A stretch of DNA of 34,274 bases. Source: an uncultured Syntrophorhabdus sp. (GTDB taxonomy: Bacteria; Desulfobacterota; BSN033; UBA1163). The stretch's first letter is position 1, and each line of letters starts with the position of its first letter. A program made the translations under genes and the position numbers. This document shows positions 116-19,262 of this stretch, one piece after another. The notes below the pieces were generated by a model, which was not told where the DNA came from, did not search any database, and was given only the letters and a program-made list of their open reading frames with translations. The stretch spans positions 1 to 34,274 of the forward strand of contig CAZREE010000005.1 of the NCBI GenBank assembly GCA_964599175.1, in the 5' to 3' direction.

Positions 116-2026
116 ATGGGAAATGTAAAAGTGATCTTTCAACCCTCTGGCAGGCAAGGAGAGATTGAAGAGGGAAAAACCATTCTCGAAGCCTCCCAGA
201 AATTAGCGGTAGGGATTGAATCCCTTTGCGGAGGGAAAAAGACATGTGGAAAATGCAAGGTCAGGGTATTAGAAGGGGAATTTTCCCCTTTCACAGATGA
301 GGAGCCCCAATTTATATCGGAATCAGAAAGACGGGAAGGGTATAGGCTGTCCTGTTCAGCCAAAATTAGAGAAGATGCCCTGATCTTCGTTCCTGAAGAA
401 AGTCTGATCCAAAGGCAGGTTATAAAAAAGCAGATAACCGGAAGACCGGTTGAACTCAAACCGGCCATCCTTCCTTATTTTGTAGAACTCCATCCCCCCT
501 CTTTCAACGATCTTTTAGGAGATTTCGACCGCCTCAAAAAAGCCCTCACTGAAAGATTTCATCTTCCTTCCCTCGAAATCGACTCCCCTGCCCTTCTGAA
601 ACTCCCTTTTACTCTCCGGGAAGACAACTGGAAAGTGACCGCCCTGGTATGGATGGATAAAAAGATCCTCGATGTCAAACCTGGAAGGATAAATGATATT
701 TTCGGTCTTGCAGTGGATATCGGAACAACGACCGTGGCCGCGTATCTCTGCAATTTGCGAAATGGAGAGATCGTGACGACCAAATCGATCATGAACCCTC
801 AGGTCGCTTATGGCGAGGATGTGATGTCGAGGATCAACTATACGATCATCCATCCGGATGGCCTCGAACGCTTGCATCGGTCGATTGTGGATGGACTGAA
901 CCGGCTAATAAAAGCCGCTGTTGAGGACGTCCACATCTCGCCGGAGGATATCCTCGAACTGGCCATCGTAGGCAATACGCTCATGCACCATCTTTTTCTT
1001 GGGATTGATCCTCGATATCTGGGGATAGCCCCTTTCCCTCCTGTTCTAAACCAACCCCTGGACATCAAGGCAATGGATTTGGGATTAAAGGTCCACCCCT
1101 CTGCCAATGTTCATCTTCTCCCCGTCGAAGCAGGGTTCGTGGGGCCGGACAATGTTGGCGTTCTGATCGCTGAGGATCCCCATCTGAGAGACGAAATCGT
1201 CCTTATTATAGATGTCGGAACCAACGGCGAACTTGTCATGGGCAATAGAAACCGACTCCTTTCTGCTTCCTGTGCCACAGGGCCGGCTTTCGAGGGAGCC
1301 CATATTCGGTTCGGGATGAGAGCAGCGCCAGGAGCCATAGAGCGAGTAAGGATCGATACCGATACCATGGAAGTGGATTTCAAAGTGATCGGAGAAGAGA
1401 ATTGGAAGTCAAATTCAAGAGATATAAAAGCAAAGGGGATCTGCGGGTCTGGGGTCATCGATGCGATTGCCGAACTATACCGGAGCGGAGTGGTCCACAA
1501 GAGTGGCGGCTTTAAAAGAGAATGTGCTTCTCCACGTATGATCATCTCTGATGGAAAACCGGAATTTGTAATCGCCTGGAAAGAAGAGACCTCCTTCGGC
1601 AAAGAAATTTCGATCACCCAGCAGGATATAAGAAATATCCAGCTGGCAAAAGCGGCTCTCTATGCAGGCGCAAAATTGATGATGAAAAAATTGGACATTG
1701 AGAGACCCGACCGGGTGATTCTCGCCGGCGCCTTTGGAAGTCACATCGATCCTGAAAAAGCAATGATCCTTGGAATGTTCCCTGACTGTGAGTTAAACGA
1801 TATTTCTGCGGTTGGCAACGCCGCTGGGGACGGCGCAAGAATGGCCCTCTTGAACATAGACAAAAGGCTGGAAGCGCAGGAAATAGCCCAAAAAGTCGAA
1901 TATATGGAACTCACGACCGAACCTGATTTCCAAAAGGAATTCATTGAGGCCATGCCAATTCCACACATGAAAGATCCCTTCCCCCATCTCAGGGGGATAA
2001 TCAGAGATGACATTCTGGATCAATAG
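116..2026 (+). CDS. 2Fe-2S ferredoxin / ASKHA-ATPase fusion, corrinoid reductive activator-like (RACo/AcsV type, DUF4445)
   Basis: 636-aa ORF. The N-terminus has a plant-type ferredoxin Cys pattern (SLCGGKKTCGKCKV ... LSCSA). Actin-fold phosphate motifs follow (LAVDIGTTTV, IIDVGTNGE, CGSGVIDA). Size and architecture match RACo-type activators as I recall them. Confidence 0.8.
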   Translation: MGNVKVIFQPSGRQGEIEEGKTILEASQKLAVGIESLCGGKKTCGKCKVRVLEGEFSPFTDEEPQFISESERREGYRLSCSAKIREDALIFVPEESLIQRQVIKKQITGRPVELKPAILPYFVELHPPSFNDLLGDFDRLKKALTERFHLPSLEIDSPALLKLPFTLREDNWKVTALVWMDKKILDVKPGRINDIFGLAVDIGTTTVAAYLCNLRNGEIVTTKSIMNPQVAYGEDVMSRINYTIIHPDGLERLHRSIVDGLNRLIKAAVEDVHISPEDILELAIVGNTLMHHLFLGIDPRYLGIAPFPPVLNQPLDIKAMDLGLKVHPSANVHLLPVEAGFVGPDNVGVLIAEDPHLRDEIVLIIDVGTNGELVMGNRNRLLSASCATGPAFEGAHIRFGMRAAPGAIERVRIDTDTMEVDFKVIGEENWKSNSRDIKAKGICGSGVIDAIAELYRSGVVHKSGGFKRECASPRMIISDGKPEFVIAWKEETSFGKEISITQQDIRNIQLAKAALYAGAKLMMKKLDIERPDRVILAGAFGSHIDPEKAMILGMFPDCELNDISAVGNAAGDGARMALLNIDKRLEAQEIAQKVEYMELTTEPDFQKEFIEAMPIPHMKDPFPHLRGIIRDDILDQ

Positions 2027-3677: not shown

Positions 3678-5021
3678 TTAATGTTTGCCTTCAAACTCCC
3701 TACGATCAAGGACCCGTTTTGCCTTGCCTTCGTATCGGGGCAATGACCCGGGCGGATGTAAAACCACCTCAATGCTCATCCCCAGACGTCCATAAACGCC
3801 CTGGCCAATTTTTTCCTCAATGGTCTTTCTCCGGTTCATATCCTGCCAGGCGTCGAATTGGACTTCGGAATGAACGGTCAGTTTATCCAGACTGTCTTTC
3901 GGTCGGTCGATCACAATCTGCCAGCCATCCCCGACCCCAGGAGTTGAATTGAGAATATCTTCAATCTGAGAGGGAAAGACCAGCGTGCTTCTGACTTTCA
4001 AGACGTCATCGGTTCGGCCTGTTATTTGTTGAATTCGAGGATGGGCCGCCCTTCCGCAAGGACATCCAAACGCATCCTTGGACAGCGCGGTTACATCACG
4101 CGTTCGCCAGCGGATCAATGGCGTGGCTTCCCGGGTAAGCGTGGTGACCACCAATTCCCCTTCCTCTCCAGGTTCAAGCCTCCTTCCGGTGACGGGGTCA
4201 ACCACTTCGACAAAATAGTGATCCGCCAGGATATGCATTTCGCAGGACAGTCGTGAAAATTGACAGCTGTGGCCGACGGTAGGACCTCCCAGCTCGGTGA
4301 TCCCGTATCCTTCATGCCATCCGAATCCTTCCGGCATAAGAGACTCAACCCGTCGTCTCAGGGCTGGAGCTGCAGGCTCGCCACCGATGTGGCTGGTCCG
4401 AAGTTTCCAGTCTTTTTTCGGGTCAATTCCGTTTTTTTCAGCCACATCAACCAAGTAACTTATGAAGGAAGGGGTCGTGGTGATGGCATGAAATCCAAGG
4501 TCCTTTAAATACTGTATTGCAGCCAACGTCCTTCCAGGACCGGCCGGGAAAATGACGGCGCCAATGGCCTCGGCCCCTGCATCCATTCCCGGCCCGCCCA
4601 TAAAAAGACCATAACCTGCGCATTGATAGATGAGATCGTGTCGTTGAAATCCCATGCCGATAAAGATCCGGCCCATCTGTTCCCGAAGGGTTTCTATCCA
4701 GTCCTTCCTGGTAAAGCCCACCAACGTCGGAACGCCTGTTGTTCCCGAAGAGGCGGCGAACCGGTGGATCCGGCCCAGAGGGACCCCCAGGATGCCATAG
4801 GGATATAAAGCCCTCAACTCCTTTTTCTCCGTAAAAGGAACAACGGCTAAATCATCAGTGGTCCGGATATGCTTTGGTTTGATGCCGTTTTTATCGAAGA
4901 GGTCCTGGTAATAAGGAATCTCCCGATAGCATCGATCCGCCAGGACGCGAAGCCGCTCATTCTGGATTTCACGGAGTTTCTGTGAGGAGATCGTATCGAA
5001 TTCATTAAAGAAGCTTGACAT
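3678..5021 (-). CDS. phenylacetate-CoA ligase family (PaaK / F390-synthetase-like) AMP-forming acyl-CoA ligase
   Basis: 447 aa. The N-terminus has the typical PaaK layout (LREIQNERLR..., YYQDLF, VVPFTEKKELR) and the ASSGTTGVPT adenylation motif. AAGGAGAG Shine-Dalgarno sequence. Sits 29 nt downstream of the B12 subunit gene. Confidence 0.8.
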   Translation of the reverse strand: MSSFFNEFDTISSQKLREIQNERLRVLADRCYREIPYYQDLFDKNGIKPKHIRTTDDLAVVPFTEKKELRALYPYGILGVPLGRIHRFAASSGTTGVPTLVGFTRKDWIETLREQMGRIFIGMGFQRHDLIYQCAGYGLFMGGPGMDAGAEAIGAVIFPAGPGRTLAAIQYLKDLGFHAITTTPSFISYLVDVAEKNGIDPKKDWKLRTSHIGGEPAAPALRRRVESLMPEGFGWHEGYGITELGGPTVGHSCQFSRLSCEMHILADHYFVEVVDPVTGRRLEPGEEGELVVTTLTREATPLIRWRTRDVTALSKDAFGCPCGRAAHPRIQQITGRTDDVLKVRSTLVFPSQIEDILNSTPGVGDGWQIVIDRPKDSLDKLTVHSEVQFDAWQDMNRRKTIEEKIGQGVYGRLGMSIEVVLHPPGSLPRYEGKAKRVLDRREFEGKH

Positions 5022-5050: not shown

Positions 5051-5446
5051 CTACTCCTTGATGAGCTCATTTATTTTTTGAAGGATCGTATCCCGCATTG
5101 TGCCGGGAGTAAAGATGGCGGAGACGCCCATCGCTTGCAATGCCTTGACATCGTCAGGAGGAACAACTCCGCCGACCATGAGTTTCTTATCCTCCAGACC
5201 ATTCCGGCCCAACAGGTCGAGCAACTTCCGGCAATAAAAGAGGTGCCCGCCGCCTAAAAAACTGCACCCGATCAGGTCTGCGTTCTCTTGAAGGACTGCC
5301 TTGACCATTCCTTCAGGAGTATTATAGAGCCCTAAATAAATCACCTCGAATCCGGCATCGGCCAGCCATTTTGATACGATCCGGATTCCATTGTCATGAC
5401 CATCCAGGCCGATCTTTCCGATGAGAACCCTTTTCTTATGTTTCAT
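5051..5446 (-). CDS. acyl-CoA mutase small subunit, cobalamin-binding domain
   Basis: 131 aa with DxHxxG (LDGHDNG), SxL (CSFLGGGH) and GG (MVGGVVPP) B12-binding motifs. AAGGAGGG Shine-Dalgarno sequence. Confidence 0.85.
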   Translation of the reverse strand: MKHKKRVLIGKIGLDGHDNGIRIVSKWLADAGFEVIYLGLYNTPEGMVKAVLQENADLIGCSFLGGGHLFYCRKLLDLLGRNGLEDKKLMVGGVVPPDDVKALQAMGVSAIFTPGTMRDTILQKINELIKE

Positions 5447-5466
5447 CTTCCCTCCTTAACTTTTAA

Positions 5467-5508
5467 CCCCTCCCTGCCTCCCCTTAAACTAAGGGGAGGT
5501 GTGGAGGG
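5467..5508. repeat. GC-rich intercistronic stem-loop between the mutase large and small subunit genes
   Basis: Left arm CCCCTCCCTGCCTCCCCTTA (5467-5486), loop AAC, right arm TAAGGGGAGGTGTGGAGGG (5490-5508). 16 of 19 positions pair, with a 3-nt internal mismatch. Confidence 0.6.
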
Positions 5509-5573
5509 CTTATGTCATTCATCGCGCCCCTGTTTTCATACCTCATTCATTCTTTTTCATAGATCTTTTGACA

Positions 5574-7211
5574 TTAAACATAGTGAACCTTAAAATCATA
5601 GGCCTCTCGCAGGGTGTCGCTGATTTCACCTAAAGTCGCCTGGTGATCTACGGTTTCAAGGATTACCTGAAAAAGGTTGTTGTTGGGATTTTTCTTCACC
5701 TGGTCATAAAGGTTTTTTAAAGCCCGCTGGACCCATTCCCTGTTTCTTGACCCTTTGTATTCTCTGATATATCGAATCCGTTTCTCCTGCATATCGGAGG
5801 CCTGCCGGAAGATGTCGATCTTGACCTCCTCATCCTCTTCTCGTTCCATGTTGACCCCGATCTGAATCAACTCTCCCTCTTCCAATTGACGGGCGTACTC
5901 ATATCGGGCCTCATTGATCTGATTCTCAATCCATTGGGATTTGAAACACTCCAGAAACCCTCCCTTCTTCTCGATGATCTCCATCAGGGCCAGAACACCC
6001 TCCTCAATCTCATTCGTCAATTTCTCAATCACATAAGAGCCTCCGAGGGGGTCCGCTGTGCGGCAGACGCCTGTTTCATAGGCGATCATCTGCTGTGTCC
6101 GAATGGCCAGCACCTGAGCCTCCTCTGTGGGAAGGGCATAGCCTTCGTCATAGGAGGTGGTATGGACCGACTGACTTCCTCCTAAGACAGCCGCCAGGGT
6201 TTGAATCGCAGAGCGCACAATATTATTCAAAGGTTGTTGAGCGGTCAGAGGCAATGAGGAGGTCTGAACAGCGATCCGGCACAGGCAGCTTCTTGGGTCC
6301 TTGGCGCCAAAGGTTTCTTTCATCAGGCGGGCCCATATGCGGCGCATGGCCCTCAGCTTGGCAATCTCCTCTAAAAAGTCTATATGGACGCTTGCAAAAA
6401 AAGCAATCCGCGGAGCAAACCGGTCAATCTCTATCCCCCTTGCCAAAAGGCGGCGGATATATTCCGATGCCAGACAGAAGGCAAAGGCAATCTCCTGAAC
6501 AGCATTGACCCCTGACTCTCTGATGTTGCGAGGATTGACATTGAGAATATTCCATTTCGGGCTGTGCTGGAGACAAAACTCCATCACATCGCAAGCAATT
6601 TTCATTGCAGGGTCGAGCGGAAAAAAATGGGTCCCCGACTGATATGTCGGGCCGACCAGTTGCGTAATGGCGCAGTTCATAATGGTTCCGATCAATTTGG
6701 AAGGGTCAACGTTCTGTTTTTTCGCAACCAGATAATACATCGCCATGATGGGGGCTGAATAGGGAGGATTCACGATCAGCGTCGTGCTCACTTTATCCAG
6801 AGGAATCTCATTAAAAAGTGTCTCCATATCTTCGAGGGTGGCCACAGAGGTCCCCACCAATCCTATATCCCCTTCAGCCAAAGGATGGTCAGGATCCAGA
6901 CCCAATTTGGTAGGGATATCCAGGTCGATGTTAAGCCCTGTCATCCCTTTCTTCAAAAGGAAATGAATGAGGCGGTTGCTCTCCAGAGGCGACCCGAATC
7001 CGCTCTGCTGTCTTCGGGTCCATAAACGGCCTCGATACATGTCCCGGTAAACCCCTCTGGTAAAGGGGAAGACGCCGGGGTCCGGCGGATCAAGAGGTGA
7101 ATCCTGACGGGTATAAAACTCCTTCATCTCAATGCCTGAAAGGGTCCTGAAATGGGGAAGTTTTTCGCCTTTTAGATAACGGTCGTATTCAATCTTATCT
7201 TTGCTTTTCAT
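5574..7211 (-). CDS. methylmalonyl-CoA-mutase-family acyl-CoA mutase, large (substrate-binding TIM barrel) subunit, divergent
   Basis: 545 aa with conserved family blocks (PFTRG, DLDIPT, FAPRIAFF, VQTSS, LNNIVRSAIQ, SVHTTSYDE). GAGGAG Shine-Dalgarno sequence. The start overlaps the tetR stop by 17 nt. Confidence 0.85.
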   Translation of the reverse strand: MKSKDKIEYDRYLKGEKLPHFRTLSGIEMKEFYTRQDSPLDPPDPGVFPFTRGVYRDMYRGRLWTRRQQSGFGSPLESNRLIHFLLKKGMTGLNIDLDIPTKLGLDPDHPLAEGDIGLVGTSVATLEDMETLFNEIPLDKVSTTLIVNPPYSAPIMAMYYLVAKKQNVDPSKLIGTIMNCAITQLVGPTYQSGTHFFPLDPAMKIACDVMEFCLQHSPKWNILNVNPRNIRESGVNAVQEIAFAFCLASEYIRRLLARGIEIDRFAPRIAFFASVHIDFLEEIAKLRAMRRIWARLMKETFGAKDPRSCLCRIAVQTSSLPLTAQQPLNNIVRSAIQTLAAVLGGSQSVHTTSYDEGYALPTEEAQVLAIRTQQMIAYETGVCRTADPLGGSYVIEKLTNEIEEGVLALMEIIEKKGGFLECFKSQWIENQINEARYEYARQLEEGELIQIGVNMEREEDEEVKIDIFRQASDMQEKRIRYIREYKGSRNREWVQRALKNLYDQVKKNPNNNLFQVILETVDHQATLGEISDTLREAYDFKVHYV

Positions 7212-7812
7212 CCTGTTCTCCTCTGACCTTTTCTATTTTTTCTCCATAGATCCCCTGAAATAAAAGAGTCGTTAACTGCCATGTTAATGCTCTGGGAGCG
7301 ACAGCTCCCTTTGGGTCATACCACTGATAAATCCAATTGACGAGCGCAAAGAAGGAGAAGGTCAGAATGTTCGGGTGAATGAATCGACATCCTGCCTCCC
7401 CGGATAAACGACGGATGACCTTTCGGCAGATTTCAAAATACCGGCGCTCCTGTTTCTTGATTATCGCCAAACGCCTCCCCCTCAGATACTCCCGCTCATG
7501 GAGAAGGCATTTCGCTTCATAATAATGGTTGACGTAAAGGTGGATATGGCGTTGAAGAATGAAGGCGATCTGCTCCCTCGGAGAGGACATGGATTCCAGA
7601 TCCTTCTCCAAATTGGATAACGTGAGGTCCATATAGTTGTTAAGGATGTTAAATAAAAGGTCCTCCTTGTTGCCAAAGTAATGATAGAGCCCCCCCAAGC
7701 TCATGCTCGTGGCCTTGGCAATATCCCTCATCGTCGTGTTTGCGAAACCCTTTTGATGGATGAGCTGCGAGGAGGTCTTGCAGATGTAATTGAATTTTTC
7801 GTCAAAGCCCAT
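7195..7812 (-). CDS. TetR/AcrR family transcriptional regulator
   Basis: HTH segment TTMRDIAKATSMSLGGLYHYFGNKEDLL. I prefer the ATG at 7812 over the ORF-track TTG at 7878, because that TTG is itself the TTGACA -35 box and the operator lies between the two. Neither start has a clear Shine-Dalgarno sequence. Confidence 0.75.
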   Translation of the reverse strand: MGFDEKFNYICKTSSQLIHQKGFANTTMRDIAKATSMSLGGLYHYFGNKEDLLFNILNNYMDLTLSNLEKDLESMSSPREQIAFILQRHIHLYVNHYYEAKCLLHEREYLRGRRLAIIKKQERRYFEICRKVIRRLSGEAGCRFIHPNILTFSFFALVNWIYQWYDPKGAVAPRALTWQLTTLLFQGIYGEKIEKVRGEQDEKQR

Positions 7813-7828
7813 TGGTCGTAAATTCAAA

Positions 7829-7842
7829 CGAACGTCCGTTCG
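7829..7842 (-). promoter_or_regulatory. candidate TetR operator (inverted repeat CGAACG-GA-CGTTCG)
   Basis: Inverted hexamers lie 7 nt downstream of the -10 box. The extended motif ACCGAACG(GACG)TTCGTTTGA recurs upstream of TRAP-1 at 11383-11399. Confidence 0.55.
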
Positions 7843-7849
7843 GTATGTT

Positions 7850-7878
7850 CTTCTAACAGTTTGCCCCCTTTTTGTCAA
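7850..7878 (-). promoter_or_regulatory. candidate sigma-70 promoter of the tetR-mutase-ligase unit
   Basis: Minus strand reads TTGACA (7878-7873), 17-nt spacer, TAGAAG (7855-7850). The TRAP-1 promoter uses the same hexamers. Confidence 0.5.
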
Positions 7879-8015: not shown

Positions 8016-9320
8016 TTACTTCACCATCAGTTTGGGCAGGACCAGAGCAATCTGAGGAAAAGCGATCAGGATAGCGGTGCAGACCACTATGGCGCCGAGA
8101 AAGGGGAAGATTCCTTTGAAGATGGTCTCCAGGGGCACATCACCCGCCACCCCTTTGATGACATATACATTTATGCCCACCGGCGGCGTAATGACTCCCA
8201 TCTCACCTACCAGCACAATGATCACCCCAAACCATATGGGGTCAAAGCCGAGTTTGAGGATAACCGGATACAGAATGGGAACGGTAAGGGTAATCAGGGC
8301 GAGTGAATCCATAAAGCAGCCGCCAATTAAATAGCCAAAGATGATAAACCCCATGATCACATAGGGAGACATTCCCAACCCCCCTACCCACTCTGACAAC
8401 TCAAAGGGAACTCTGGTCACTGCCATGAAGCGACCGAAGATGGTTGCCCCGGCGACAATAAGAAAGACCATCGCTGTTATCCGGGTTGTCTCGGATAAAG
8501 AAGTAAGAAAACCCTGCCAGCTCAGCGTTCGCCTGACTATGGCAATGATCAGCGTTCCAATAGCGCCAACCGCACCGGATTCCGTAGGAGTAAACCATCC
8601 GGCAAAAAGACCTCCGATGACCAGAAGAAACAAAATCAACATTTCTATGACGCCTGAGAGAGAAGCAATCCGCTCTTTCCAGGTGGCCTCATCTCCCGGA
8701 GGGGCGAGCGAAGGTCTAAACCGACACAGGATGAGGACCGTGATGATAAACAGGGCTGTCAGGAGCAATCCCGGGAGAATGCCTGCGGCAAAGAGCTTCC
8801 CTATAGATTCCCCGGTCATGATCCCGTAGATGATCAAGACCGTGCTCGGCGGAATCAGGATGGCCAGGCTGCCCGCAGAGGCAACACAGCCTGTAGCCAG
8901 TGAGTCGTCGTAGCGAAATCTTTTCATCTCAGGCAGGGTGACCTTGCCCATGGCTGCCGCTCCTGCAATGGTTGACCCGCACATCGCGCCAAATCCGGCG
9001 CAGGCCATGATGGTTGATACAGCCAACCCTCCCCGCATTTGCGCAAAAAACTTATGCGCGGCGTTGTAAAGGCGCCCCCCCATGCCCGAATGGAAGGCAA
9101 GCGTGCCCATAAAGACAAACATGGGGACGACCGTTAAACTATAGGATGAGAAGAGCACCCAAAAATCTTTAGCCAGAAGGCTGAGGCCCCCGTCTACGGA
9201 AACGACGTAGGAAAAGCCGAGAAAACCAATAAGAGCCATCGCATAGGCTACCGGCATCCGTAAAAGAAATAAAAAAACAAGAAGCAGAATACTGACGATG
9301 GTAATCGTGCCTGAACTCAT
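8016..9320 (-). CDS. dctM: TRAP transporter large permease (TRAP-1)
   Basis: 434-aa polytopic membrane protein typical of DctM. ATGA overlap with the dctQ stop. Confidence 0.9.
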   Translation of the reverse strand: MSSGTITIVSILLLVFLFLLRMPVAYAMALIGFLGFSYVVSVDGGLSLLAKDFWVLFSSYSLTVVPMFVFMGTLAFHSGMGGRLYNAAHKFFAQMRGGLAVSTIMACAGFGAMCGSTIAGAAAMGKVTLPEMKRFRYDDSLATGCVASAGSLAILIPPSTVLIIYGIMTGESIGKLFAAGILPGLLLTALFIITVLILCRFRPSLAPPGDEATWKERIASLSGVIEMLILFLLVIGGLFAGWFTPTESGAVGAIGTLIIAIVRRTLSWQGFLTSLSETTRITAMVFLIVAGATIFGRFMAVTRVPFELSEWVGGLGMSPYVIMGFIIFGYLIGGCFMDSLALITLTVPILYPVILKLGFDPIWFGVIIVLVGEMGVITPPVGINVYVIKGVAGDVPLETIFKGIFPFLGAIVVCTAILIAFPQIALVLPKLMVK

Positions 9321-9802
9321 CCTTTCACCGCCTTAACCAATGATTTAATAATGTCAATCAGAATCACAATGCAGAGTAAGCCGCAACCAAAGGCGATCGC
9401 ATAGAGATAGGGATAAAAAGGAACAAGAGCCGTCATGGACAATTCACCCGAACGCCGCATGTCGTTGCCTAAAACAATGCACTGCCAGGTGATTAAAACA
9501 AATATGCCAAGACTAAGCATGTGCGTCAGGATGCCGATTATCCCTTGAACTCGCTCCGGAAGTCGCATCATGATCAGCTCTACCGCTATGTGGCCTTTTT
9601 TCAAAGCACAGTAAGCAAGAGCGAGGGCAACCAGGATTGCCCCTAAAAAACCGACAAAGTCAAAAGTTCCATAGATAGGCTTCCAGACCAAACGCCCCAG
9701 GATATTGCCGACGACAAGAAGCATCATGGCAATTACGGCGACCTGTGCAATCCGGTCACAGAACTCGCTCACCCAATGAACCAAGCGTTCAATAAAAGCC
9801 AT
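9317..9802 (-). CDS. dctQ: TRAP transporter small permease (TRAP-1)
   Basis: 161 aa with 4 predicted TM helices. AAGGAG Shine-Dalgarno sequence. Position between dctP and dctM. Confidence 0.85.
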   Translation of the reverse strand: MAFIERLVHWVSEFCDRIAQVAVIAMMLLVVGNILGRLVWKPIYGTFDFVGFLGAILVALALAYCALKKGHIAVELIMMRLPERVQGIIGILTHMLSLGIFVLITWQCIVLGNDMRRSGELSMTALVPFYPYLYAIAFGCGLLCIVILIDIIKSLVKAVKG

Positions 9803-9927
9803 TGAGTCTAACTCCTTTTTAGTATCCTCTATGGAGGGCGCCCTTCACAGATTATTCTGTCTGTTGCGGACACCCTCCATAAAGTTTTTTCATATATGAT
9901 GGTCTCGTAAAAAGCCCTGATTTGTCG

Positions 9928-10019
9928 CCCTGAACTCGGTTTCGAGTCGTACCGACTTGTTTCAGGGTCTCGTAAGCGCTTCATTTTGTTAGATGCTGAA
10001 CCAAGTTCAGCATGACATT
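9928..10019 (+). repeat. composite double-hairpin repeat, copy A (inverted copy at 31990-32060)
   Basis: CTTGTTTCAGGGTCTCGTAA (9956-9975), a 13-nt spacer, then TTAGATGCTGAACCAAGTTCAGCATGACATT (9989-10019). The reverse complement of 31990-32060 has the same modules with the same 13-nt spacing. Confidence 0.75.
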
Positions 10020-10081
10020 CTTTCTGGTTTCTGGCTTTTTACAAATTCATAATATACGCAATTGCTAACTCGCCCACTACC

Positions 10082-11161
10082 TCAGGGTTTCCAGGGTTCA
10101 AATTTCATTTTATTATATTTCTCCACGATCCTGCCTGCCTCTTTAACCATCTCTTCCCCGGGGAGCCCTCTGGCCTTCAGTGAGGCGGCATATTCCCCGG
10201 CTATCGGCTCTAACAGTTTTTTCAGCTTTGCCACTTCAGCTTCAGGGAGATACAGAAGCTCATGGCCTCCGGTTTGCCGTTTGGCAAAATCCGCCCCCCT
10301 CTTCTGCATAAATTGCCAGATTTGGCCGGCTTCCTTCATCGCTTCCTCGGCAACCGCATCGAAAGCATCCTGAAGGTCCTTGGGCAACGCCTTCCACTTA
10401 GCCAGGTTCATGCCAACCCAGAAGAACTCGGAATAGAAGTGGGGAACAAAGGTGGAATAATCAAAAACCTCGTGATGTTTCCATCCTTCAAGCGTTTCAG
10501 CCGGTGAGATAATGGCATCGATGATTCCCTTTTGCGCTGCAAGGTAAGTCTCGCCCATCACCATCGCTACCGGCTCTCCCCCAACTGCCTTAACCCCCTG
10601 AATCCCTGGTCCGGTAACTCTTATTTTCAGGCCTTTCATATCCGCCACGGTGCGAACCGGTTTCTTGGTATGCAGCCAGCCGGGTCCGGTGGCGTAGACA
10701 TAAAGCACCTTTGTATCGTCAAATTCTTTCGGCTTATATTTTCTGTAGAACTCCCAGATGGTGTGAGCCGCAGCATCAGAACTTTCCGGCGGGGCGATTC
10801 CAGGCTGATTGAGGGTCAACATTGCCGGGAATTTCCCGGGGGTCCAGCCAAGCGATGTGGTGCCCGAATCGGCAATGCCCTTGACCACTCCATCGTAGAT
10901 CTCGGCTCCTCCGAGTAAAGTCGAAACGGGAAAATATTTTATGTCAAGAGCATACTTTCCTCCTGCTGCCTTTTCCACCATCTTAAAATACCGTGGCATT
11001 TGATCGGCATGCATAAAATGGGTAACCGGCCAGGGATGGACAAACCCAAGCGTTATCTTTTCTGTTTTGGGTTGAGCATAGGCTTCCGGCATTGTCCGGA
11101 TGCCAAGAGATAATGCGATCAAAATCGCCATTGACAAACCAAATAAAGCTCTCTTTCTCAT
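10082..11161 (-). CDS. dctP: TRAP transporter substrate-binding protein (TRAP-1), DctP family
   Basis: Start re-set to the ATG at 11161, which has a GGAGAGGAG Shine-Dalgarno sequence and the signal peptide MRKRALFGLSMAILIALSLGIRTMPEAYAQ. DctP-type block ADMKGLKIRV. Confidence 0.85.
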   Translation of the reverse strand: MRKRALFGLSMAILIALSLGIRTMPEAYAQPKTEKITLGFVHPWPVTHFMHADQMPRYFKMVEKAAGGKYALDIKYFPVSTLLGGAEIYDGVVKGIADSGTTSLGWTPGKFPAMLTLNQPGIAPPESSDAAAHTIWEFYRKYKPKEFDDTKVLYVYATGPGWLHTKKPVRTVADMKGLKIRVTGPGIQGVKAVGGEPVAMVMGETYLAAQKGIIDAIISPAETLEGWKHHEVFDYSTFVPHFYSEFFWVGMNLAKWKALPKDLQDAFDAVAEEAMKEAGQIWQFMQKRGADFAKRQTGGHELLYLPEAEVAKLKKLLEPIAGEYAASLKARGLPGEEMVKEAGRIVEKYNKMKFEPWKP

Positions 11162-11205
11162 TCCTTTTCTCCTCTCCTTTGCAAGTGATTTTGAATTTGT
11201 TTTAC

Positions 11206-11250
11206 TTCCCTTTCCTCTATCTTCCTTTCCCACCTCCCTTCTTCTCCTCC
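11206..11250 (-). repeat. 45-nt polypurine (mRNA sense) tract in the dctP-1 leader
   Basis: 43 of 45 plus-strand bases are pyrimidines. The mRNA sense strand reads GGAGGAGAAGAAGGGAGGTGGGAAAGGAAGATAGAGGAAAGGGAAG, with several SD-like GGAGG motifs. Confidence 0.8.
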
Positions 11251-11314
11251 GATTACCATCACGCGGTTTTTTGAGATTGACATAGGGCAACGTTCTTTTT
11301 TTTAAAAACCATCC

Positions 11315-11332
11315 CATTCTCCATGGAGAATG
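11315..11332. promoter_or_regulatory. perfect 18-bp palindrome in the dctP-1 leader
   Basis: CATTCTCCATGGAGAATG equals its own reverse complement. On the mRNA strand it is followed by GGGATGG and then TTTTT. Confidence 0.5.
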
Positions 11333-11813: not shown

Positions 11814-13115
11814 TTATCTCATCAATACCGAGGGAAGATAGGTAGCCAGTTGGGGGAATAAAAACAATAGAGTCGCTCCCACCACGAGACTGATTAAAAA
11901 AGGATAAACCCCGCTGTAAATCACGCCAAAGGGCACCTTCGTGATGTTCTTTACCACAAAGACGTTGATGGCCACCGGAGGAATAACCACGCCAACCATG
12001 ACCGTAATCGCAATGACCATGCCGAACCAGATAGGGTCGAACCCTAACTTGAGAATGACCGGATAGAAGATGGGGGTTGCCAGAACCATAAAAGCAAGGT
12101 CATCGATGAAAGATCCTCCTAATAGATAAATGAGTGCGATGAAAACCATCACGGTATATCTGTGAAAAGGAAGTTCCACAATCCAGTCTGCGGCCATCAT
12201 GGGAATTTTTGTGATTGCGAGAAAATGGCCGAGGACGGTCGACCCAGCGATGAGCATAAGAACCATACAGGCCGTGCGGAGCGATTCTCCCACAGACTTC
12301 ACATACCCTTTAAAATTCATATCCCTCTTCATCAAAGCCATCAAAAGAACGGCAAAGGTCCCTACACTTCCGGCCTCAGTCGGCGTGAAAAAACCCTTCA
12401 TCAGGCCTCCGATGACAAGCAGAAAGATGATCAACACCCATGTCACTTCCGGCAGAGATGCGATCCTCTCCTTCCAGGATGATTTTGCGCCCTCGGGACC
12501 CATCTCTGGATTGATTTTGCACCATCCATAGATAATCACGACAAAAAAGAAAGCGATAATCACGCCGGGAATGATCCCGGCTAAAAAGAGTTTGCCGATA
12601 GATTGTTCGGTAATGATTCCAAAAACGATCAGGGTAACGCTTGGAGGAATGAGAACGCCAAGCGTTCCCACCGTGGCAACAATTCCCGTTGAAAGCCTCT
12701 TGTCATAGTTATATCGATCCATTTCAGGCACGGCGACGCTGGCAAAAGTGGCAGCGGTCGCTGGAGATGACCCGCAGATAGCCTTGAAAGCCATAGCCCC
12801 TGCCACTGTTGCCATGGCCAATCCTCCTGGAATATGCCCGATAAATTTATAGGAAGCGTTGTATAACCTTTTGGCAATTCCTGCGTTAAAGGCGATCTGT
12901 CCCATGAGGACAAAGAGCGGAATAACCGTAAACCCATAAGAAACAAAGACGTCGAAAAAATCTTTGGCTAAAAGGTTCAATGCGGCGGGCATCGAAACAA
13001 TATACGCAAACCCTAAAAATCCGACGATAGCCATTGCAAAACCGAGCTCAATGCCCGTAAGGAATAAAACCAGAACAATCGCCAGGCCTAAAATGCCAAC
13101 GCTGACGTCACTCAT
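11814..13115 (-). CDS. dctM: TRAP transporter large permease (TRAP-2)
   Basis: Start re-set to the ATG at 13115, with GGAGGG upstream. The ORF-track start is a TTG inside that Shine-Dalgarno sequence. 433-aa polytopic DctM. Confidence 0.9.
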   Translation of the reverse strand: MSDVSVGILGLAIVLVLFLTGIELGFAMAIVGFLGFAYIVSMPAALNLLAKDFFDVFVSYGFTVIPLFVLMGQIAFNAGIAKRLYNASYKFIGHIPGGLAMATVAGAMAFKAICGSSPATAATFASVAVPEMDRYNYDKRLSTGIVATVGTLGVLIPPSVTLIVFGIITEQSIGKLFLAGIIPGVIIAFFFVVIIYGWCKINPEMGPEGAKSSWKERIASLPEVTWVLIIFLLVIGGLMKGFFTPTEAGSVGTFAVLLMALMKRDMNFKGYVKSVGESLRTACMVLMLIAGSTVLGHFLAITKIPMMAADWIVELPFHRYTVMVFIALIYLLGGSFIDDLAFMVLATPIFYPVILKLGFDPIWFGMVIAITVMVGVVIPPVAINVFVVKNITKVPFGVIYSGVYPFLISLVVGATLLFLFPQLATYLPSVLMR

Positions 13116-13590
13116 ATTTCCCTCCAAAAATCTTTAGAATATCGCATAGCAGAACCAGACATTGGATAAAACAGGCAACCCCTATCCCGAAAGCCACCGG
13201 GTAAAAGGGCAACTGAAGAGTGAGGGAAACCTCTCCGGATCGCTGTAAATCCAAGCCCACCTTGAAAAGATTCCATCCAACTAAAAAAAATAAGCCTATG
13301 CCCATCAGCCGCGTCACACTATTGATCGCATTTCTCGCCTGTTGAGGAAATTTGAGTATGAAGAAATCGACAAAGATATGTCCTCTCGTCCACGAGGTCA
13401 GAGGAATGGCAAAGCCGATCACCACCCCTCCTGTAAAAGCCACCAGTTCAAAAGTCCCAAGAATGGGATTTCGAAAATACCTTAAAATGACATCGGAGAC
13501 CGTGAGGCCGATAATGAACGTCAAGGCAATGCCTGAAATGATATACATGAAACGACTGATCCCTTTTATCCCATTTAAAAAACCATTCAT
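13108..13590 (-). CDS. dctQ: TRAP transporter small permease (TRAP-2)
   Basis: Start re-set to the ATG at 13590 (GAGGAG 6 nt upstream). 160 aa, 4 TM helices. Confidence 0.85.
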   Translation of the reverse strand: MNGFLNGIKGISRFMYIISGIALTFIIGLTVSDVILRYFRNPILGTFELVAFTGGVVIGFAIPLTSWTRGHIFVDFFILKFPQQARNAINSVTRLMGIGLFFLVGWNLFKVGLDLQRSGEVSLTLQLPFYPVAFGIGVACFIQCLVLLCDILKIFGGKYE

Positions 13591-13673
13591 AGGAGACTCC
13601 TCATCCTTCTTAATCCCCCAACATAAAAAAATGGGGGGAAGAGTAAGCTTCCTCATTCCCCCCGGTATTTGCT

Positions 13674-14702
13674 TTATTTTTGATATTTATAGAGAGTTTC
13701 CAAAGCGAATCTGAGCGCTTCGTCTCCTGGAAGATCTTTTCCCCTCATACTTTTCACATATTCATCGAAGATGGGCTTTACCAGTTTGGTCCATTTCCAA
13801 TCCTCATCCTGCGGAAGAGGAATGAGCTGACTTCCCCTCGCTTTAACGACATCGTATCCCTTTTTATCAATCTCATCCCAGAGATTTCCTGTTCTTTCGA
13901 TCCACTCTTCGTTCAGCTTCCCAATGATTCCCTGGATATCGGCAGGCAGCGCCGCCCATTTCGCCTTATTCATTGTGACGATGAAAGTTGTGGAATAGGC
14001 GGATCCGAAATTTTGTGTGGTAAATTTTGTGACTTCTCCAAGCTTCCAGCCGTCGAGGGCCTCAACGGGGCACATGACACCCTCCACCACGCCTCTGCTA
14101 AGAGCATCATAGGTTTCCGGCATTGGCATGGCAACAGGAGCCCCTCCAAGGGCAGCCACGACTTTGGAGCTCAGGCCGTGGCTGCGGATCTTGAGCCCTT
14201 TCAAATCTTCCAGGTTCCTGACGGCTTTTTTGGAGGTATGAAGAATACCCGGCCCATGAGCATGGAAGTACATCACCTTGGTCTCATCAAATTCTTTTGG
14301 GTTAAATCTTTTGAAGTAATCATTGGCCACCTTCGTCGCGGCATATCCTGATTTATAACCCAGGGGCAGATCAATGACTTCGGTCAACGGGAACTTACCC
14401 CTCGTGTAACCGAGCACGGTTAAACATAAATCGGATATCCCTTTGACCACACCATCATAGGCCACTTCTCCCTTTGTCAATGTGCCGCCGGGAAACATAG
14501 TCACCTTGACTCTTCCATTCGTTCTCTTTTCCAGCTCCTTACACCACTCCACGGCAAGTACGGTCATCTTATGGGGTGCGGGGAAAAAGGTGGAGTAATT
14601 TAATTCAATCGGTTTGGTCTGCGCGGAAGCAGGAGAAACAGACAACAACCATCCAAAAATTGAAATGCATAAGACTAAAGAAATAAGTTTAAAACGTCCC
14701 AT
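13674..14702 (-). CDS. dctP: TRAP transporter substrate-binding protein (TRAP-2), DctP family
   Basis: Signal peptide ending SPASAQ. DctP block LEDLKGLKIRS. AAAGGAGG Shine-Dalgarno sequence. Confidence 0.9.
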   Translation of the reverse strand: MGRFKLISLVLCISIFGWLLSVSPASAQTKPIELNYSTFFPAPHKMTVLAVEWCKELEKRTNGRVKVTMFPGGTLTKGEVAYDGVVKGISDLCLTVLGYTRGKFPLTEVIDLPLGYKSGYAATKVANDYFKRFNPKEFDETKVMYFHAHGPGILHTSKKAVRNLEDLKGLKIRSHGLSSKVVAALGGAPVAMPMPETYDALSRGVVEGVMCPVEALDGWKLGEVTKFTTQNFGSAYSTTFIVTMNKAKWAALPADIQGIIGKLNEEWIERTGNLWDEIDKKGYDVVKARGSQLIPLPQDEDWKWTKLVKPIFDEYVKSMRGKDLPGDEALRFALETLYKYQK

Positions 14703-16915: not shown

Positions 16916-16931
16916 CTTTGCCTCCGCAAAA

Positions 16932-17042
16932 AGTTCGGAGTCATGAGCTCGTAGTTCGGAGGTTTTTAGATTCTTAATACACCATTTAATATCGGAATTC
17001 TTTATCCTAATCTCCGAACTCCGAACTAAATTACTCCGAACT
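16932..17042. repeat. inverted arrays of the 9-mer AGTTCGGAG / CTCCGAACT
   Basis: AGTTCGGAG at 16932-16940 and 16953-16961. CTCCGAACT at 17012-17020 and 17034-17042, plus CCGAACT at 17021-17027. Confidence 0.75.
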
Positions 17043-18004: not shown

Positions 18005-18221
18005 AAAGACCTCCTTAAAAGGGACAAAGTATTCATTCAATGGGGAACGGTAACGAGGCCCGTATCGTTCGTAAAAGGCCGCGTTTATCATCTTTTAATT
18101 CTTATTTACATAACCGTCACCGAATGACGAAACGGGCTTCGTAACTTTAACCGTAACCCAGGAAATTGGTTGATTCTTGTTACTCGTGCTTAACGACCCT
18201 GTCATGAATGCTTTCTCAGAA

Positions 18222-19001: not shown

Positions 19002-19014
19002 AAAAGATTAATTC

Positions 19015-19164: not shown

Positions 19165-19262
19165 GTTATATGCCTTTTTTTTATTCAGGAAACATTATCG
19201 CCGAAAATAACCTTTGATTCTAATATTGCAATCCGTGACGATTAGATAGAAAATAAAATCTC

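What the first reader, a model, noticed from the sequence alone, without database searches (positions are those of the whole stretch)
5574..7211. Mutase large subunit lacks the canonical substrate-pocket motifs
I compared the ORF with P. shermanii MutB / human MUT as I remember them:
- RQY(89)AGF becomes RRQQSGF.
- GTIQNDILKEFMVR(207)NTY becomes GTIMNCAITQLVGPTYQSGTH, which is longer and has no Arg.
- ISGY(243)H(244)MQEAG becomes VNPRNIRESG.

Other family blocks are retained (PFTRG, DLDIPT, FAPRIAFF, VQTSS, LNNIVRSAIQ, SVHTTSYDE).

The Tyr89 and Arg207 positions are the published specificity determinants; they are Phe/Gln in isobutyryl-CoA mutase and differ again in hydroxyisobutyryl-CoA mutase. 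Tyr243/His244 are near-invariant in the families I know. Replacement of all four suggests a different substrate or altered chemistry.

The partner small subunit keeps DxHxxG, SxL and GG. Base-off/His-on cobalamin binding is therefore still expected.
Basis: partly seen in the sequence, partly recalled or inferred. Interest (0 to 1): 0.65.

Follow-up and report, generated by a model that had tools for sequence, protein, structure and literature searches.

The report
B12 acyl-CoA mutase, remodelled substrate pocket
This gene encodes a vitamin-B12-dependent enzyme that rearranges the carbon skeleton of a CoA-bound acid; it belongs to a large unstudied family from uncultured sulfate-reducer-type bacteria whose substrate pocket differs from every studied relative, so it most likely acts on a compound not yet known to be handled this way.

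Summary
The ORF lies on the minus strand (545 aa, Pfam MM_CoA_mutase E 2.9e-171). HMMER alignments to solved MCM and HCM structures put Gln at Tyr89, Ser after a 4-residue insertion at Arg207, Arg at Tyr243 and Asn at His244. No indel restores the canonical residues.

The changes define a family of at least 230 90%-identity clusters, found only in Thermodesulfobacteriota metagenome bins. WTRRQQSGF, N-x-D-x-D, GTxMNC, the loop insertion and His244Asn are invariant. dN/dS is about 0.07. The same genomes also carry a canonical MCM.

- Tyr243 is ancestral. Arg arose separately in two sub-lineages, each time with Ala275Val.
- Asp96 matches the hydroxyl-binding Asp117 of HCM, the best structural match.
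- A 43%-identical sister family shares Gln89, Asn244 and the insertion, and sits in hydantoinase/ligase/acyl-CoA-dehydrogenase clusters.

The conserved operon is TRAP transporter, TetR, large subunit, small subunit, PaaK-type CoA ligase. I read it as uptake, CoA activation and 1,2-rearrangement of an unidentified acid, probably one with an aryl or other bulky polar substituent.

It is a new variant of a known enzyme kind. The substrate is unknown.

The parts
5574..7211 (-). Large (substrate-binding, TIM-barrel) subunit of an adenosylcobalamin-dependent acyl-CoA mutase, 545 aa, 'R-type' member of the WTRRQQSGF family
   Evidence: PF01642 E 2.9e-171, residues 22-538. TIGR00641 scores 536 bits, above its cut-off. 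AF2 model pTM 0.81; Foldseek best hits are HCM 4r3u, then human MCM. dN/dS 0.06-0.08.
6996..7022 (-). Codons for WTRRQQSGF (aa 64-72). Gln69 replaces Tyr89 of MCM, and Arg66 replaces the Ile/Met at position 86.
   Evidence: Alignments. The motif is the same in about 220 of some 230 full-length relatives.
6909..6938 (-). Codons for GLNIDLDIPT (aa 92-101). Asn94 replaces Ser114. Asp96 replaces Ala116 of MCM and matches Asp117 of HCM.
   Evidence: Asn94 and Asp96 are invariant in alignment A1.
6618..6689 (-). Codons for GTIMNCAITQLVGPTYQSGTHFFP (aa 175-198). Met178 replaces Gln197 and Cys180 replaces Asp199. A 4-residue insertion follows, and Ser192 occupies the Arg207 (MCM) / Gln208 (HCM) position.
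6510..6542 (-). Codons for NVNPRNIRESG (aa 224-234). Asn224/Asn226 replace Ser239/Ser241, Arg228 replaces Tyr243, and Asn229 replaces His244.
   Evidence: Arg228 co-varies with Val275.
5051..5446 (-). Small cobalamin-binding subunit, 131 aa, with DxHxxG (GLDGHDNG), SxL (SFLGG) and GG (GGVVP)
   Evidence: PF02310 E 1.4e-19. TIGR00640 scores 131 bits against a cut-off of 57. Sequence. It lies directly downstream of the large subunit in most loci of the family where that side of the contig is present.
3678..5021 (-). PaaK-type (AMP-binding + AMP-binding_C_2) acyl-CoA ligase, 447 aa. It is the presumed activator of the imported acid.
   Evidence: Best solved relatives are the phenylacetate-CoA ligases 2y4o and 4r1l (about 270 bits); 2-hydroxyisobutyryl-CoA synthetase 6hdw scores 164 bits. 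It follows mutS in the group-A loci.
7195..7878 (-). TetR-family regulator. Its stop overlaps the mutase start by 17 nt. The true start is probably later than the TTG at 7878, since relatives are about 205 aa.
   Evidence: PF00440 + PF17932. The same 17-nt overlap occurs in L001. A TetR gene precedes the mutase in many loci of both sub-lineages.
8016..11317 (-). TRAP transporter DctM (8016-9320), DctQ (9317-9802) and DctP solute-binding protein (10082-11317; the start is probably later), directly upstream of the operon
   Evidence: The set is syntenic in L001, L003, L007, L086, L090 and others. The closest solved binding proteins are 4n6d, 4pgn/4pgp and 4nap, then 7nr2, with 7nsw lower.

Best explanation
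The large and small subunits form a functional, base-off/His-on adenosylcobalamin-dependent CoA-carbonyl mutase of a distinct, uncharacterised family. I call it the 'WTRRQQSGF / N-x-[R/Y]-N' family.

Proposed sequence of events (inferred from operon content):
1. A carboxylic acid is taken up by the adjacent TRAP transporter.
2. The co-encoded PaaK-type ligase converts it to its CoA thioester.
3. The mutase shifts the CoA-carbonyl group to the neighbouring carbon by the usual radical 1,2-rearrangement.
4. The product enters general beta-oxidation-type metabolism.
5. The TetR protein, which is translationally coupled to the mutase, controls the operon.

The CoA-binding and adenosyl/cobalamin-facing residues are kept. 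At least a dozen barrel-lining residues around the acyl moiety are replaced:
- Tyr89Gln
- Ser114Asn
- Ala116Asp
- Gln197Met
- Asp199Cys
- Arg207 lost, with a 4-residue loop insertion
- Ser239Asn and Ser241Asn
- Tyr243Arg
- His244Asn
- His328Ala
- Asn366Thr

The acyl group is therefore not methylmalonyl, isobutyryl, 2-hydroxyisobutyryl or any other known substrate.

My best guess for the substrate class is an acyl-CoA with a bulky (aryl or heteroaryl) and/or hydroxyl or amino substituent, derived from aromatic-acid metabolism. Asn229 would take over the hydrogen bond to the thioester carbonyl that His244 gives in MCM. Asp96 would hold a hydroxyl or amino group, as Asp117 does in HCM.

Shown: fold, subunit pairing, motif replacement, family-wide conservation, purifying selection, and operon conservation.
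Inferred: catalytic competence, the order of steps, and the substrate class.
For: **Enzyme identity**
- Full-length PF01642 plus a separate PF02310 subunit.
- DxHxxG, SxL and GG motifs in the small subunit.
- The AF2 model matches HCM and MCM at TM about 0.8.
- The CoA-segment residues (MY.R..WT.R), FAPR..FF, Gln330 and Glu370 equivalents are retained.

**A selected, not degenerate, pocket**
- The same replacements occur in about 230 relatives at 58-92% identity.
- 27 aligned positions (plus one beyond the numbered MCM stretch) are at least 90% conserved one way in 80 canonical mutases and another way in the family.
- dN/dS is about 0.07.
- The Arg228/Val275 versus Tyr228/Ala275 switch recurs in both sub-lineages.

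**A separate function from MCM**
- Canonical MCM genes with Tyr/Arg/Tyr-His lie in the same contigs, together with epimerase and carboxyltransferase genes.

**Pathway logic**
- DctPQM-(TetR)-mutL-mutS-ligase is conserved across dozens of metagenome loci. Some carry a second large-subunit paralogue or a family-III CoA-transferase.

**Aromatic or bulky substrate**
- The ligase is closest to phenylacetate-CoA ligases.
- The TRAP binding proteins are closest to 4pgn/4pgp/4nap. 4NAP binds a D-amino acid, and a DctP-family protein binds indole-3-acetate (PMC10443332). That these entries are the indole-acid binders is my recollection of Vetting et al. 2015.
- Hosts include Syntrophorhabdus and Desulfatiglandales bins.
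- A 65%-identical branch lies next to a three-subunit molybdenum hydroxylase, beta-oxidation genes and hydrolases.
- The sister family lies in hydantoinase/ligase/acyl-CoA-dehydrogenase clusters that resemble the indoleacetate (iaa) cluster, whose mutase IaaGH acts on phenylsuccinyl-type CoA esters (PMC8360864).

**Hydroxyl or amino substituent**
- Asp96 aligns with HCM Asp117. The role of Asp117 is from my memory of Kurteva-Yaneva et al. 2015, which I could not read here.
Against: - No member of the family comes from a cultured organism, and none has been assayed, so catalysis itself is unproven.
- His244 contributes to catalysis in MCM (the H244A mutant structure 1e1c exists). A family-wide Asn could mean slower or different chemistry.
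- No MeaB-type chaperone or adenosyltransferase gene lies in this window, although a MeaB gene precedes the mutase in L088, L089, L128 and L148.
- The contexts are heterogeneous. Group B pairs the mutase with an MmgE/PrpD-family protein and a different ligase. Another branch pairs it with a 2-oxoacid:ferredoxin oxidoreductase, an aminotransferase and an amidohydrolase. This fits aliphatic or amino-acid-derived acids at least as well as aromatic ones.
- Model confidence is only moderate around the pocket (pLDDT 51-85), and I could not inspect coordinates.
- The ligands of the closest TRAP binding proteins rest partly on memory.
Confidence: 0.6

Rival explanations
1. It is an HCM-like hydroxyacyl-CoA mutase for a small tertiary or branched hydroxy or amino acid, for example a homologue of 2-hydroxyisobutyrate. 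A PaaK/HCL-type ligase activates the acid, and the product is an ordinary 3-hydroxyacyl-CoA that needs no dedicated downstream enzymes.
For: - HCM is the best sequence, profile and fold match.
- Asp96 aligns with HCM Asp117.
- The solved 2-hydroxyisobutyryl-CoA synthetase 6hdw is itself a PaaK-family ligase and matches the operon's ligase at 164 bits.
- The group-A operon holds no downstream pathway enzymes, as expected if the product is a central metabolite.
Against: - HCM's other determinants are not kept. Ile90 is Gln, Gln208 is Ser after an insertion, and Tyr-His is Arg-Asn.
- Identity to HCM is only 37%.
- The ligase is much closer to phenylacetate-CoA ligases (270 versus 164 bits).
- The TRAP binding proteins resemble those for larger aromatic ligands.
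Confidence: 0.18
2. It is an arylsuccinyl/benzylmalonyl-CoA-type mutase, the strict-anaerobe counterpart of IaaGH. It would act on a ring-opened product of an aromatic or heteroaromatic acetic acid such as indoleacetate.
For: - The operon has a PaaK-type ligase, and IaaB is an indoleacetate-CoA ligase (PMC8360864).
- The TRAP binding proteins are related to indole-acid binders (PMC10443332).
- A family-III CoA-transferase lies between the two large-subunit genes in L111-L113, and another lies about 9 kb downstream in L003/L004, like IaaL.
- A molybdenum hydroxylase and beta-oxidation genes lie next to the 65%-identical branch.
- The sister family, with the same Gln89/Asn244/insertion signature, sits in hydantoinase A/B + ligase + acyl-CoA dehydrogenase clusters.
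- Arg228 could bind the free carboxylate.
Against: - The window and the group-A loci lack hydantoinase, molybdenum hydroxylase and acyl-CoA dehydrogenase genes next to the mutase.
- Half of the family has Tyr rather than Arg at position 228, and no other new basic residue faces the pocket apart from Arg66.
- I could not obtain the IaaG sequence, so the link between the sister family and IaaGH is only a gene-content resemblance.
Confidence: 0.17
3. It is a catalytically dead or regulatory paralogue, like the beta subunit MutA of P. shermanii MCM, that has lost the catalytic His and the substrate-binding residues.
For: His244, Tyr89, Arg207 and Gln197 are all replaced. In some operons two large-subunit genes share one small subunit.
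Against: - The replacements are themselves invariant rather than drifting, and dN/dS is about 0.07.
- The protein keeps the CoA- and adenosyl-facing residues.
- It is paired with its own intact cobalamin-binding subunit.
- In this window, and in most group-B loci, it is the only large subunit in the operon.
- MutA-type chains score far lower (106 bits versus 305-405).
Confidence: 0.04

Closest known systems
2-Hydroxyisobutyryl-CoA mutase HcmAB (Aquincola tertiaricarbonis, PDB 4R3U) and the related (R)-specific RCM
   Same: - Split large and small subunit architecture.
- Best sequence match (405 bits), best profile match (503 bits) and best fold match (TM 0.81).
- Asp at the Asp117 position.
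- Partnered with a PaaK-family acid-CoA ligase.
   Different: - 37% identity.
- Ile90 is Gln.
- Gln208 is Ser after a 4-residue insertion.
- Gln at the MCM-197 position is Met.
- Tyr-His is Arg-Asn.
- His328 is Ala.
- No MeaH/MeaB gene in the operon.
- The hosts are strictly anaerobic Thermodesulfobacteriota.
Methylmalonyl-CoA mutase (P. shermanii MutB 1REQ; human MMUT 2XIJ)
   Same: Same fold, same CoA-threading barrel, the Gln330 and Glu370 equivalents, and a DxHxxG cobalamin domain.
   Different: - Tyr89, Gln197, Arg207, Tyr243 and His244 are all replaced.
- It scores half the NCBIfam equivalog cut-off (435 against 876).
- A true MCM is encoded elsewhere in the same genomes.
Isobutyryl-CoA mutase / IcmF (PDB 4XC6) and pivalyl-CoA mutase
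   Same: An acyl-CoA mutase that has lost the carboxylate-binding Arg207, which fits a substrate without that carboxylate.
   Different: - These enzymes have Phe/Gln at positions 89/207 and keep Tyr-His (ICM-like sequences).
- IcmF scores only 191 bits.
- There is no fused or adjacent G-protein here.
IaaGH, the phenylsuccinyl-/benzylmalonyl-CoA mutase of anaerobic indoleacetate degradation (Aromatoleum aromaticum; PMC8360864)
   Same: A B12 mutase working with a PaaK-type aryl-acetate CoA ligase and a binding-protein-dependent uptake system. The sister family with the same Gln89/Asn244 signature lies in clusters with an iaa-like gene content.
   Different: No hydantoinase, IaaL or IaaF homologues lie next to the gene in this window. 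Direct sequence comparison with IaaG was not possible.
Unnamed sister family 'WTRR[FV]QVGF / VTN[GA]YNLRE' (P0125, P0389-P0507)
   Same: Gln at Tyr89, the loop insertion before position 207, no Arg207, Asn at His244, and a split small subunit.
   Different: - 43% identity.
- It keeps Gln197 and Asp199.
- It has Thr-Ile-Asp instead of Asn-Ile-Asp-x-Asp, so it lacks the Asp96 equivalent.
- It is found in Gamma-/Deltaproteobacteria bins with hydantoinase A/B, MeaB and acyl-CoA dehydrogenase genes.

Membership tests
Adenosylcobalamin-dependent acyl-CoA (CoA-carbonyl) mutase superfamily | Full-length MM_CoA_mutase TIM-barrel domain | tested here: met
   PF01642 covers residues 22-538 of 545, profile positions 1-511 of 512, E 2.9e-171. 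TIGR00641 scores 536 bits against a cut-off of 304. Foldseek TM 0.8 to HCM and MCM.
Adenosylcobalamin-dependent acyl-CoA (CoA-carbonyl) mutase superfamily | Cobalamin-binding Rossmann domain with DxHxxG, SxL and GG (base-off/His-on) | tested here: met
   The separate 131-aa subunit matches PF02310 and TIGR00640. It carries GLDGHDNG, SFLGG and GGVVP.
Adenosylcobalamin-dependent acyl-CoA (CoA-carbonyl) mutase superfamily | Conserved CoA-binding N-terminal segment and adenosyl-facing residues (Arg82/Thr85/Arg87, Arg283/Phe287, Gln330, Glu370 in MCM numbering; the residue roles are from memory) | tested here: met
   The aligned equivalents Arg62, Thr65, Arg67, Arg268, Phe272, Gln316 and Glu356 are invariant in the family.
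Adenosylcobalamin-dependent acyl-CoA (CoA-carbonyl) mutase superfamily | Adenosylcobalamin-dependent 1,2-shift of a CoA-carbonyl group | not testable with these tools
   This needs an enzyme assay.
Methylmalonyl-CoA mutase (EC 5.4.99.2) | Tyr89 and Arg207 binding the free carboxylate; Tyr243-His244 | tested here: not met
   The window protein has Gln69, Ser192 (plus the insertion), Arg228 and Asn229. NF006944 scores 435 bits against a cut-off of 876.
Isobutyryl-CoA mutase / IcmF | Phe and Gln at the 89/207 positions, Tyr-His retained, and an associated or fused G-protein | tested here: not met
   The protein has Gln69/Ser192 and Arg-Asn. NF045497 scores 233 bits against a cut-off of 1500. No MeaB/MeaI-like gene is in the window.
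2-Hydroxyisobutyryl-CoA mutase (HCM/RCM) | Asp117, which hydrogen-bonds the substrate hydroxyl | tested here: met
   Asp96 aligns with Asp117 of 4R3U (chain index 128 minus 11). It is invariant in the family.
2-Hydroxyisobutyryl-CoA mutase (HCM/RCM) | Ile90, Gln208 and the conserved Tyr-His pair | tested here: not met
   The protein has Gln69, Ser192 after the insertion, and Arg228-Asn229.
IaaGH-type arylsuccinyl-CoA mutase | Location in an iaa-like cluster with hydantoinase-like, CoA-transferase (IaaL) and decarboxylating acyl-CoA dehydrogenase (IaaF) genes | tested here: not met
   None of these genes is in the 34-kb window. A CoA-transferase occurs in a few related loci only.
IaaGH-type arylsuccinyl-CoA mutase | Sequence relationship to Aromatoleum aromaticum IaaG | not testable with these tools
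   The IaaG sequence could not be retrieved.
Ethylmalonyl-CoA mutase / pivalyl-CoA mutase | Family-specific pocket residues and pathway context (crotonyl-CoA carboxylase/reductase for ECM; a fused or adjacent G-protein for PCM) | not tested
No such context genes are in the window.

The most novel reading that the evidence does not exclude
The family catalyses a B12-dependent carbon-skeleton rearrangement that has not been described. One example would be interconversion of 2-aryl and 3-aryl (or aryl-hydroxy) propionyl-CoA-type esters, or of another bulky polar acyl-CoA, in anaerobic degradation of aromatic acids. An Asn would replace the 'universal' catalytic His, and a two-residue switch (Arg228/Val275 versus Tyr228/Ala275) would set which of two related substrates each paralogue takes.
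Probability: 0.3. Interest if true: 0.8.

Novelty: new variant of a known kind. Interest (0 to 1): 0.6.

Why it matters
All characterised CoA-carbonyl mutases share a nearly identical pocket. Only two or three residues set their specificity, and the Tyr-His pair is kept in all of them (PMC2847961; 80 of 80 canonical sequences).

This family breaks that rule at a dozen positions, including the catalytic His. It is abundant in anoxic sediments, lakes and wetlands, and no function is assigned to it.

Identifying the substrate would:
- add a new reaction to the short list of B12 carbon-skeleton mutases;
- probably fill a gap in how strictly anaerobic Thermodesulfobacteriota (Syntrophorhabdus- and Desulfatiglans-like organisms) break down branched or aromatic acids;
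- give enzyme engineers a natural example of a wholesale pocket redesign, which rational mutagenesis of these enzymes has so far failed to achieve (PMC2847961, PMC11599936).

The twice-evolved Arg/Val versus Tyr/Ala switch is a ready-made specificity experiment.

Tried and rejected
- **Indel-shift explanation.** Rejected by pairwise HMMER alignments and a multiple alignment.
- **Already-named subfamily.** The NCBIfam equivalogs fall below cut-off. No informative names exist in about 470 listed relatives or in the cluster look-up.
- **Literature.** Searches for residue names, subfamily names, 'Syntrophorhabdus + mutase' and all 'acyl-CoA mutase' papers since 2016 found nothing on this family. 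A search for the PDB codes of the TRAP binding proteins gave almost only false hits.
- **Papers not held.** Kurteva-Yaneva 2015, Weichler 2015, Ebenau-Jehle 2012 and Vetting 2015 were unavailable. The roles of Asp117/Ile90, the iaa gene content and some ligand identities therefore rest on memory.
- **Superposition of the model on an MCM crystal structure.** Not possible, because model coordinates are not exposed. Only Foldseek scores were obtained.
- **tblastn of the sister family against plasmids.** This was meant to find an annotated cultured example. It gave only hits of 44% identity or less.
- **Rfam scan of the window.** No cobalamin riboswitch or other RNA family was found.
- **Promoter and terminator scan of the operon.** Counts were at chance level.
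- **The RACo-like gene at the left end as a possible mutase reactivase.** Rejected. In relative L001 it sits beside a corrinoid protein and a URO-D-family (methyltransferase-type) gene, so it most likely belongs to that system.
Full report
**1. The observation**

The window holds a 545-codon ORF at 5574-7211 on the minus strand. The plus-strand translation of the same coordinates is full of stops. The protein matches Pfam MM_CoA_mutase over its whole length (E 2.9e-171). It also matches the NCBIfam subfamily-domain model TIGR00641 (536 bits against a cut-off of 304).

phmmer alignments to the solved structures give these equivalences:

| MCM position | Window residue |
|---|---|
| Tyr89 | Gln69 |
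| Gln197 | Met178 |
| Asp199 | Cys180 |
| Arg207 (= Gln208 of HCM) | Ser192, after a four-residue insertion |
| Tyr243 | Arg228 |
| His244 | Asn229 |

I checked the numbering against the alignment. The 1REQ index plus 1, and the 4R3U index minus 11, reproduce the literature numbers for Tyr89, Arg207, Tyr243/His244, Ile90, Asp117 and Gln208. A profile of 40 family members gives the same ranking of solved relatives, and a MAFFT alignment with 80 canonical enzymes gives the same picture.

The small subunit (5051-5446, minus strand) carries GLDGHDNG, SFLGG and GGVVP.

**2. The replacements define a family**

The 120 best database relatives (61-92% identity) and a further 118 around a more distant member all carry:
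- WTRRQQSGF;
- G-x-N-[IM]-D-x-D;
- GT-x-MNC;
- Q-x-VGPT[FY]Q...FFP;
- N-x-N-x-[RY]-N-x-RE.

In a library clustered at 50% identity, only one representative lies above 51% (57%). The full-length hits then fall to 46% or less, so the family is sharply bounded.

Among one genome per species, only eight loci carry it. All are metagenome bins of Thermodesulfobacteriota/'Deltaproteobacteria', including Syntrophorhabdus and Syntrophaceae. The more distant half of the family is labelled Desulfatiglandales and Desulfobacteraceae.

27 aligned positions, plus one beyond the numbered MCM stretch, are at least 90% conserved one way in 80 canonical split mutases and another way in the family. In MCM numbering they include Ile/Met86Arg, Ser114Asn, Ala116Asp, Ser164Thr, Thr166Ile, Gln197Met, Asp199Cys, Ser239Asn, Ser241Asn, His244Asn, His328Ala and Asn366Thr. 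These are barrel-strand positions around the acyl end of the CoA channel. By contrast, the CoA-binding N-terminal segment, FAPR..FF, Gln330 and Glu370 equivalents are retained.

dN/dS against six orthologues is 0.06-0.08. The pocket has been rebuilt and then held fixed. It has not decayed.

**3.

- *Tyr243 is kept in about half of the family* (N-A-Y-N). It is also kept in the nearest outgroups, so it is ancestral. Arg occurs in one clade of the 76-92% group (to which the window belongs) and in one clade of the 58-62% group. Members of each group are closer to each other than to the other group, so Arg arose twice. Both times it came with Ala275Val, and these are the only two positions that switch in both groups.
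- *Many relatives carry two large-subunit genes.* One is Arg-type and one is Tyr-type, around a single small subunit and ligase (L010, L086, L090 and others). The window has only the Arg-type.
- *Asp96 is the equivalent of HCM Asp117*. HCM is the best hit by sequence, profile and fold.
- *The same contigs often carry a canonical MCM*, with Tyr/Arg/Tyr-His, beside epimerase and carboxyltransferase genes.
- *A sister family at 43% identity shares the core signature.* It has Gln at position 89, the loop insertion, no Arg207, and Asn at position 244. It lies between hydantoinase A/B genes and CoA ligases, MeaB, acyl-CoA dehydrogenase and thiolase genes. This gene content resembles the indoleacetate (iaa) cluster, whose mutase IaaGH interconverts phenylsuccinyl- and benzylmalonyl-type CoA esters (PMC8360864). 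The hydantoinase and molybdenum-enzyme content of that cluster is from my memory of Ebenau-Jehle et al. 2012.

**4. Context**

In the window the minus-strand order is: DctP-DctQ-DctM (11317-8016), TetR (7878-7195, overlapping the mutase start by 17 nt), large subunit, small subunit, then a PaaK-type ligase (5021-3678). A convergent pcnB gene follows.

I clustered ORFs from 97 loci. This order is conserved throughout the 76-92% group. Three variants occur:
- a second large subunit after the ligase;
- a duplicated small/large pair;
- a family-III CoA-transferase between two large subunits.

The 58-62% group has TetR, large subunit, small subunit, an MmgE/PrpD-family protein, a different AMP-binding ligase, and often a TRAP system.

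Two further branches differ again:
- One lies beside a three-subunit molybdenum hydroxylase, enoyl-CoA hydratase, dehydrogenase, thiolase and hydrolases.
- The other has TetR, MeaB, large subunit, small subunit, then a four-gene 2-oxoacid:ferredoxin oxidoreductase with an NAD(P)H-type subunit, a peptide-binding protein, an amidohydrolase and an aminotransferase.

The same four-gene oxidoreductase is in the window at 23195-27604.

The constant partners are therefore a transporter, a regulator and a CoA-activating enzyme.

The ligase is closest to phenylacetate-CoA ligases (about 270 bits) and more distantly related to 2-hydroxyisobutyryl-CoA synthetase (164 bits). The TRAP binding proteins are closest to 4n6d, 4pgn/4pgp and 4nap, followed by the 7nr2/7nsw/7nrr group and 5im2. 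4NAP binds a D-amino acid, and a DctP-family protein binds indole-3-acetate (PMC10443332). The assignment of these codes to indole acids and hydroxycinnamates is otherwise from memory.

**5. Mechanism**

*Shown:*
- the two-subunit B12 mutase architecture;
- the cobalamin-binding motifs;
- the retained CoA and adenosyl contacts;
- a remodelled and conserved acyl pocket;
- operon linkage to uptake and CoA activation.

*Inferred:* the acid is imported, ligated to CoA, and isomerised by a radical 1,2-shift of the CoA-carbonyl group. Asn229 would give the hydrogen bond to the thioester oxygen that His244 gives in MCM. Asp96 would hold a hydroxyl or amino group.

Loss of Tyr89, Arg207, Gln197 and His328 removes the carboxylate clamp and opens space. 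Together with the ligase type, the binding-protein type, the hosts and the sister-family context, this makes a bulky aryl or heteroaryl and/or hydroxylated acyl group the most likely substrate.

I put:
- about 0.8 on 'functional mutase with a substrate different from all characterised ones';
- about 0.35-0.4 on the aromatic/bulky sub-claim;
- about 0.18 on a small HCM-like hydroxyacyl substrate;
- about 0.04 on a dead paralogue.

**6. Comparison and novelty**

[quoted passage not shown] It fails the residue tests for MCM, ICM/IcmF and HCM, apart from Asp117, and it fails the NCBIfam equivalog cut-offs. Membership of the IaaGH type could not be tested by sequence. The context test is not met in this window.

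No paper found describes the family. A 2010 review stresses how similar the substrate sites of known CoA-carbonyl mutases are, and that simple residue swaps have not given active enzymes (PMC2847961).

I rate it a new variant of a known kind, of moderately high interest to B12 enzymology and to anaerobic degradation research.

Noticed in passing
window 116-2026 (+): A RACo/AcsV-like corrinoid reductive activase (2Fe-2S + RACo linker/middle/C-terminal domains). In relative L001 it lies next to a corrinoid protein and a URO-D-type methyltransferase, so it probably serves a methyltransferase (demethylase) system that continues beyond the left end of the window, not the mutase.
   Followed up: partly
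window 23195-27604 (-), with GntR regulator at 27621-28349 (-): A four-gene 2-oxoacid:ferredoxin oxidoreductase (gamma, a Fer4_20/Pyr_redox_2 NAD(P)H-type subunit, alpha, beta), preceded by a third TRAP system. The same four-gene set lies directly downstream of the mutase small subunit in L088/L089/L128, which hints at a functional link.
   Followed up: partly
window 5447-5573 (-): The spacer between the large and small subunit genes is 127 nt here, against about 10-190 nt in relatives. It holds a GC-rich hairpin just upstream of the small-subunit ribosome-binding site (MFE -36 kcal/mol, z -3.07, 0 of 200 shuffles as stable).
   Followed up: partly
family-wide; window aa 228 and 275 (codons 6528-6530 and 6387-6389, minus strand): Arg228/Val275 versus Tyr228/Ala275 is the only pair of positions that switches between paralogue types in both sub-lineages of the family. 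This is a parallel two-residue change, likely a specificity switch.
   Followed up: yes
window 8016-11317, 11814-14702, 20139-23117 (all -): Three complete DctPQM TRAP transporters lie within 15 kb. The two binding proteins I searched (those of the first two systems) are closest to solved proteins of the 4n6d/4pgn/4nap group and the 7nr2/7nsw group, which suggests an island for uptake of aromatic or 2-oxo acids.
   Followed up: partly
window 15842-20043 (-): A set of four genes: DUF2226/DUF4388, Cache-HAMP, DUF4388 (PatA_N-like) and an unassigned 222-aa ORF. It is syntenic upstream of the TRAP-mutase region in L007, L092, L097, L098 and L116, and may be a sensory module for the same substrates.
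   Followed up: no
window 28419-29702 (+) and 29699-30373 (-): A LarA-family (nickel-pincer 2-hydroxyacid racemase/epimerase-like) gene converges on a DUF1638 gene.
   Followed up: no
L170, L171, L172 (sister family): A large unnamed mutase family (WTRR[FV]QVGF, VTN[GA]YNLRE) also has Gln at Tyr89 and Asn at His244. It is embedded between hydantoinase A/B genes and ligase, MeaB and acyl-CoA dehydrogenase genes. In L171 the small subunit is fused to an AMP-binding ligase domain.
   Followed up: partly
L130, L137, L139, L141, L143, L145, L152, L153 (58-62% group): In the more distant half of the family, the gene after the small subunit is an MmgE/PrpD-family protein (about 457 aa). It is followed by a fatty-acyl-type AMP ligase, and sometimes by a DRL-like oxidoreductase with a SAF domain. 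This partnership between a B12 mutase and a PrpD-like enzyme is unexplained.
   Followed up: partly
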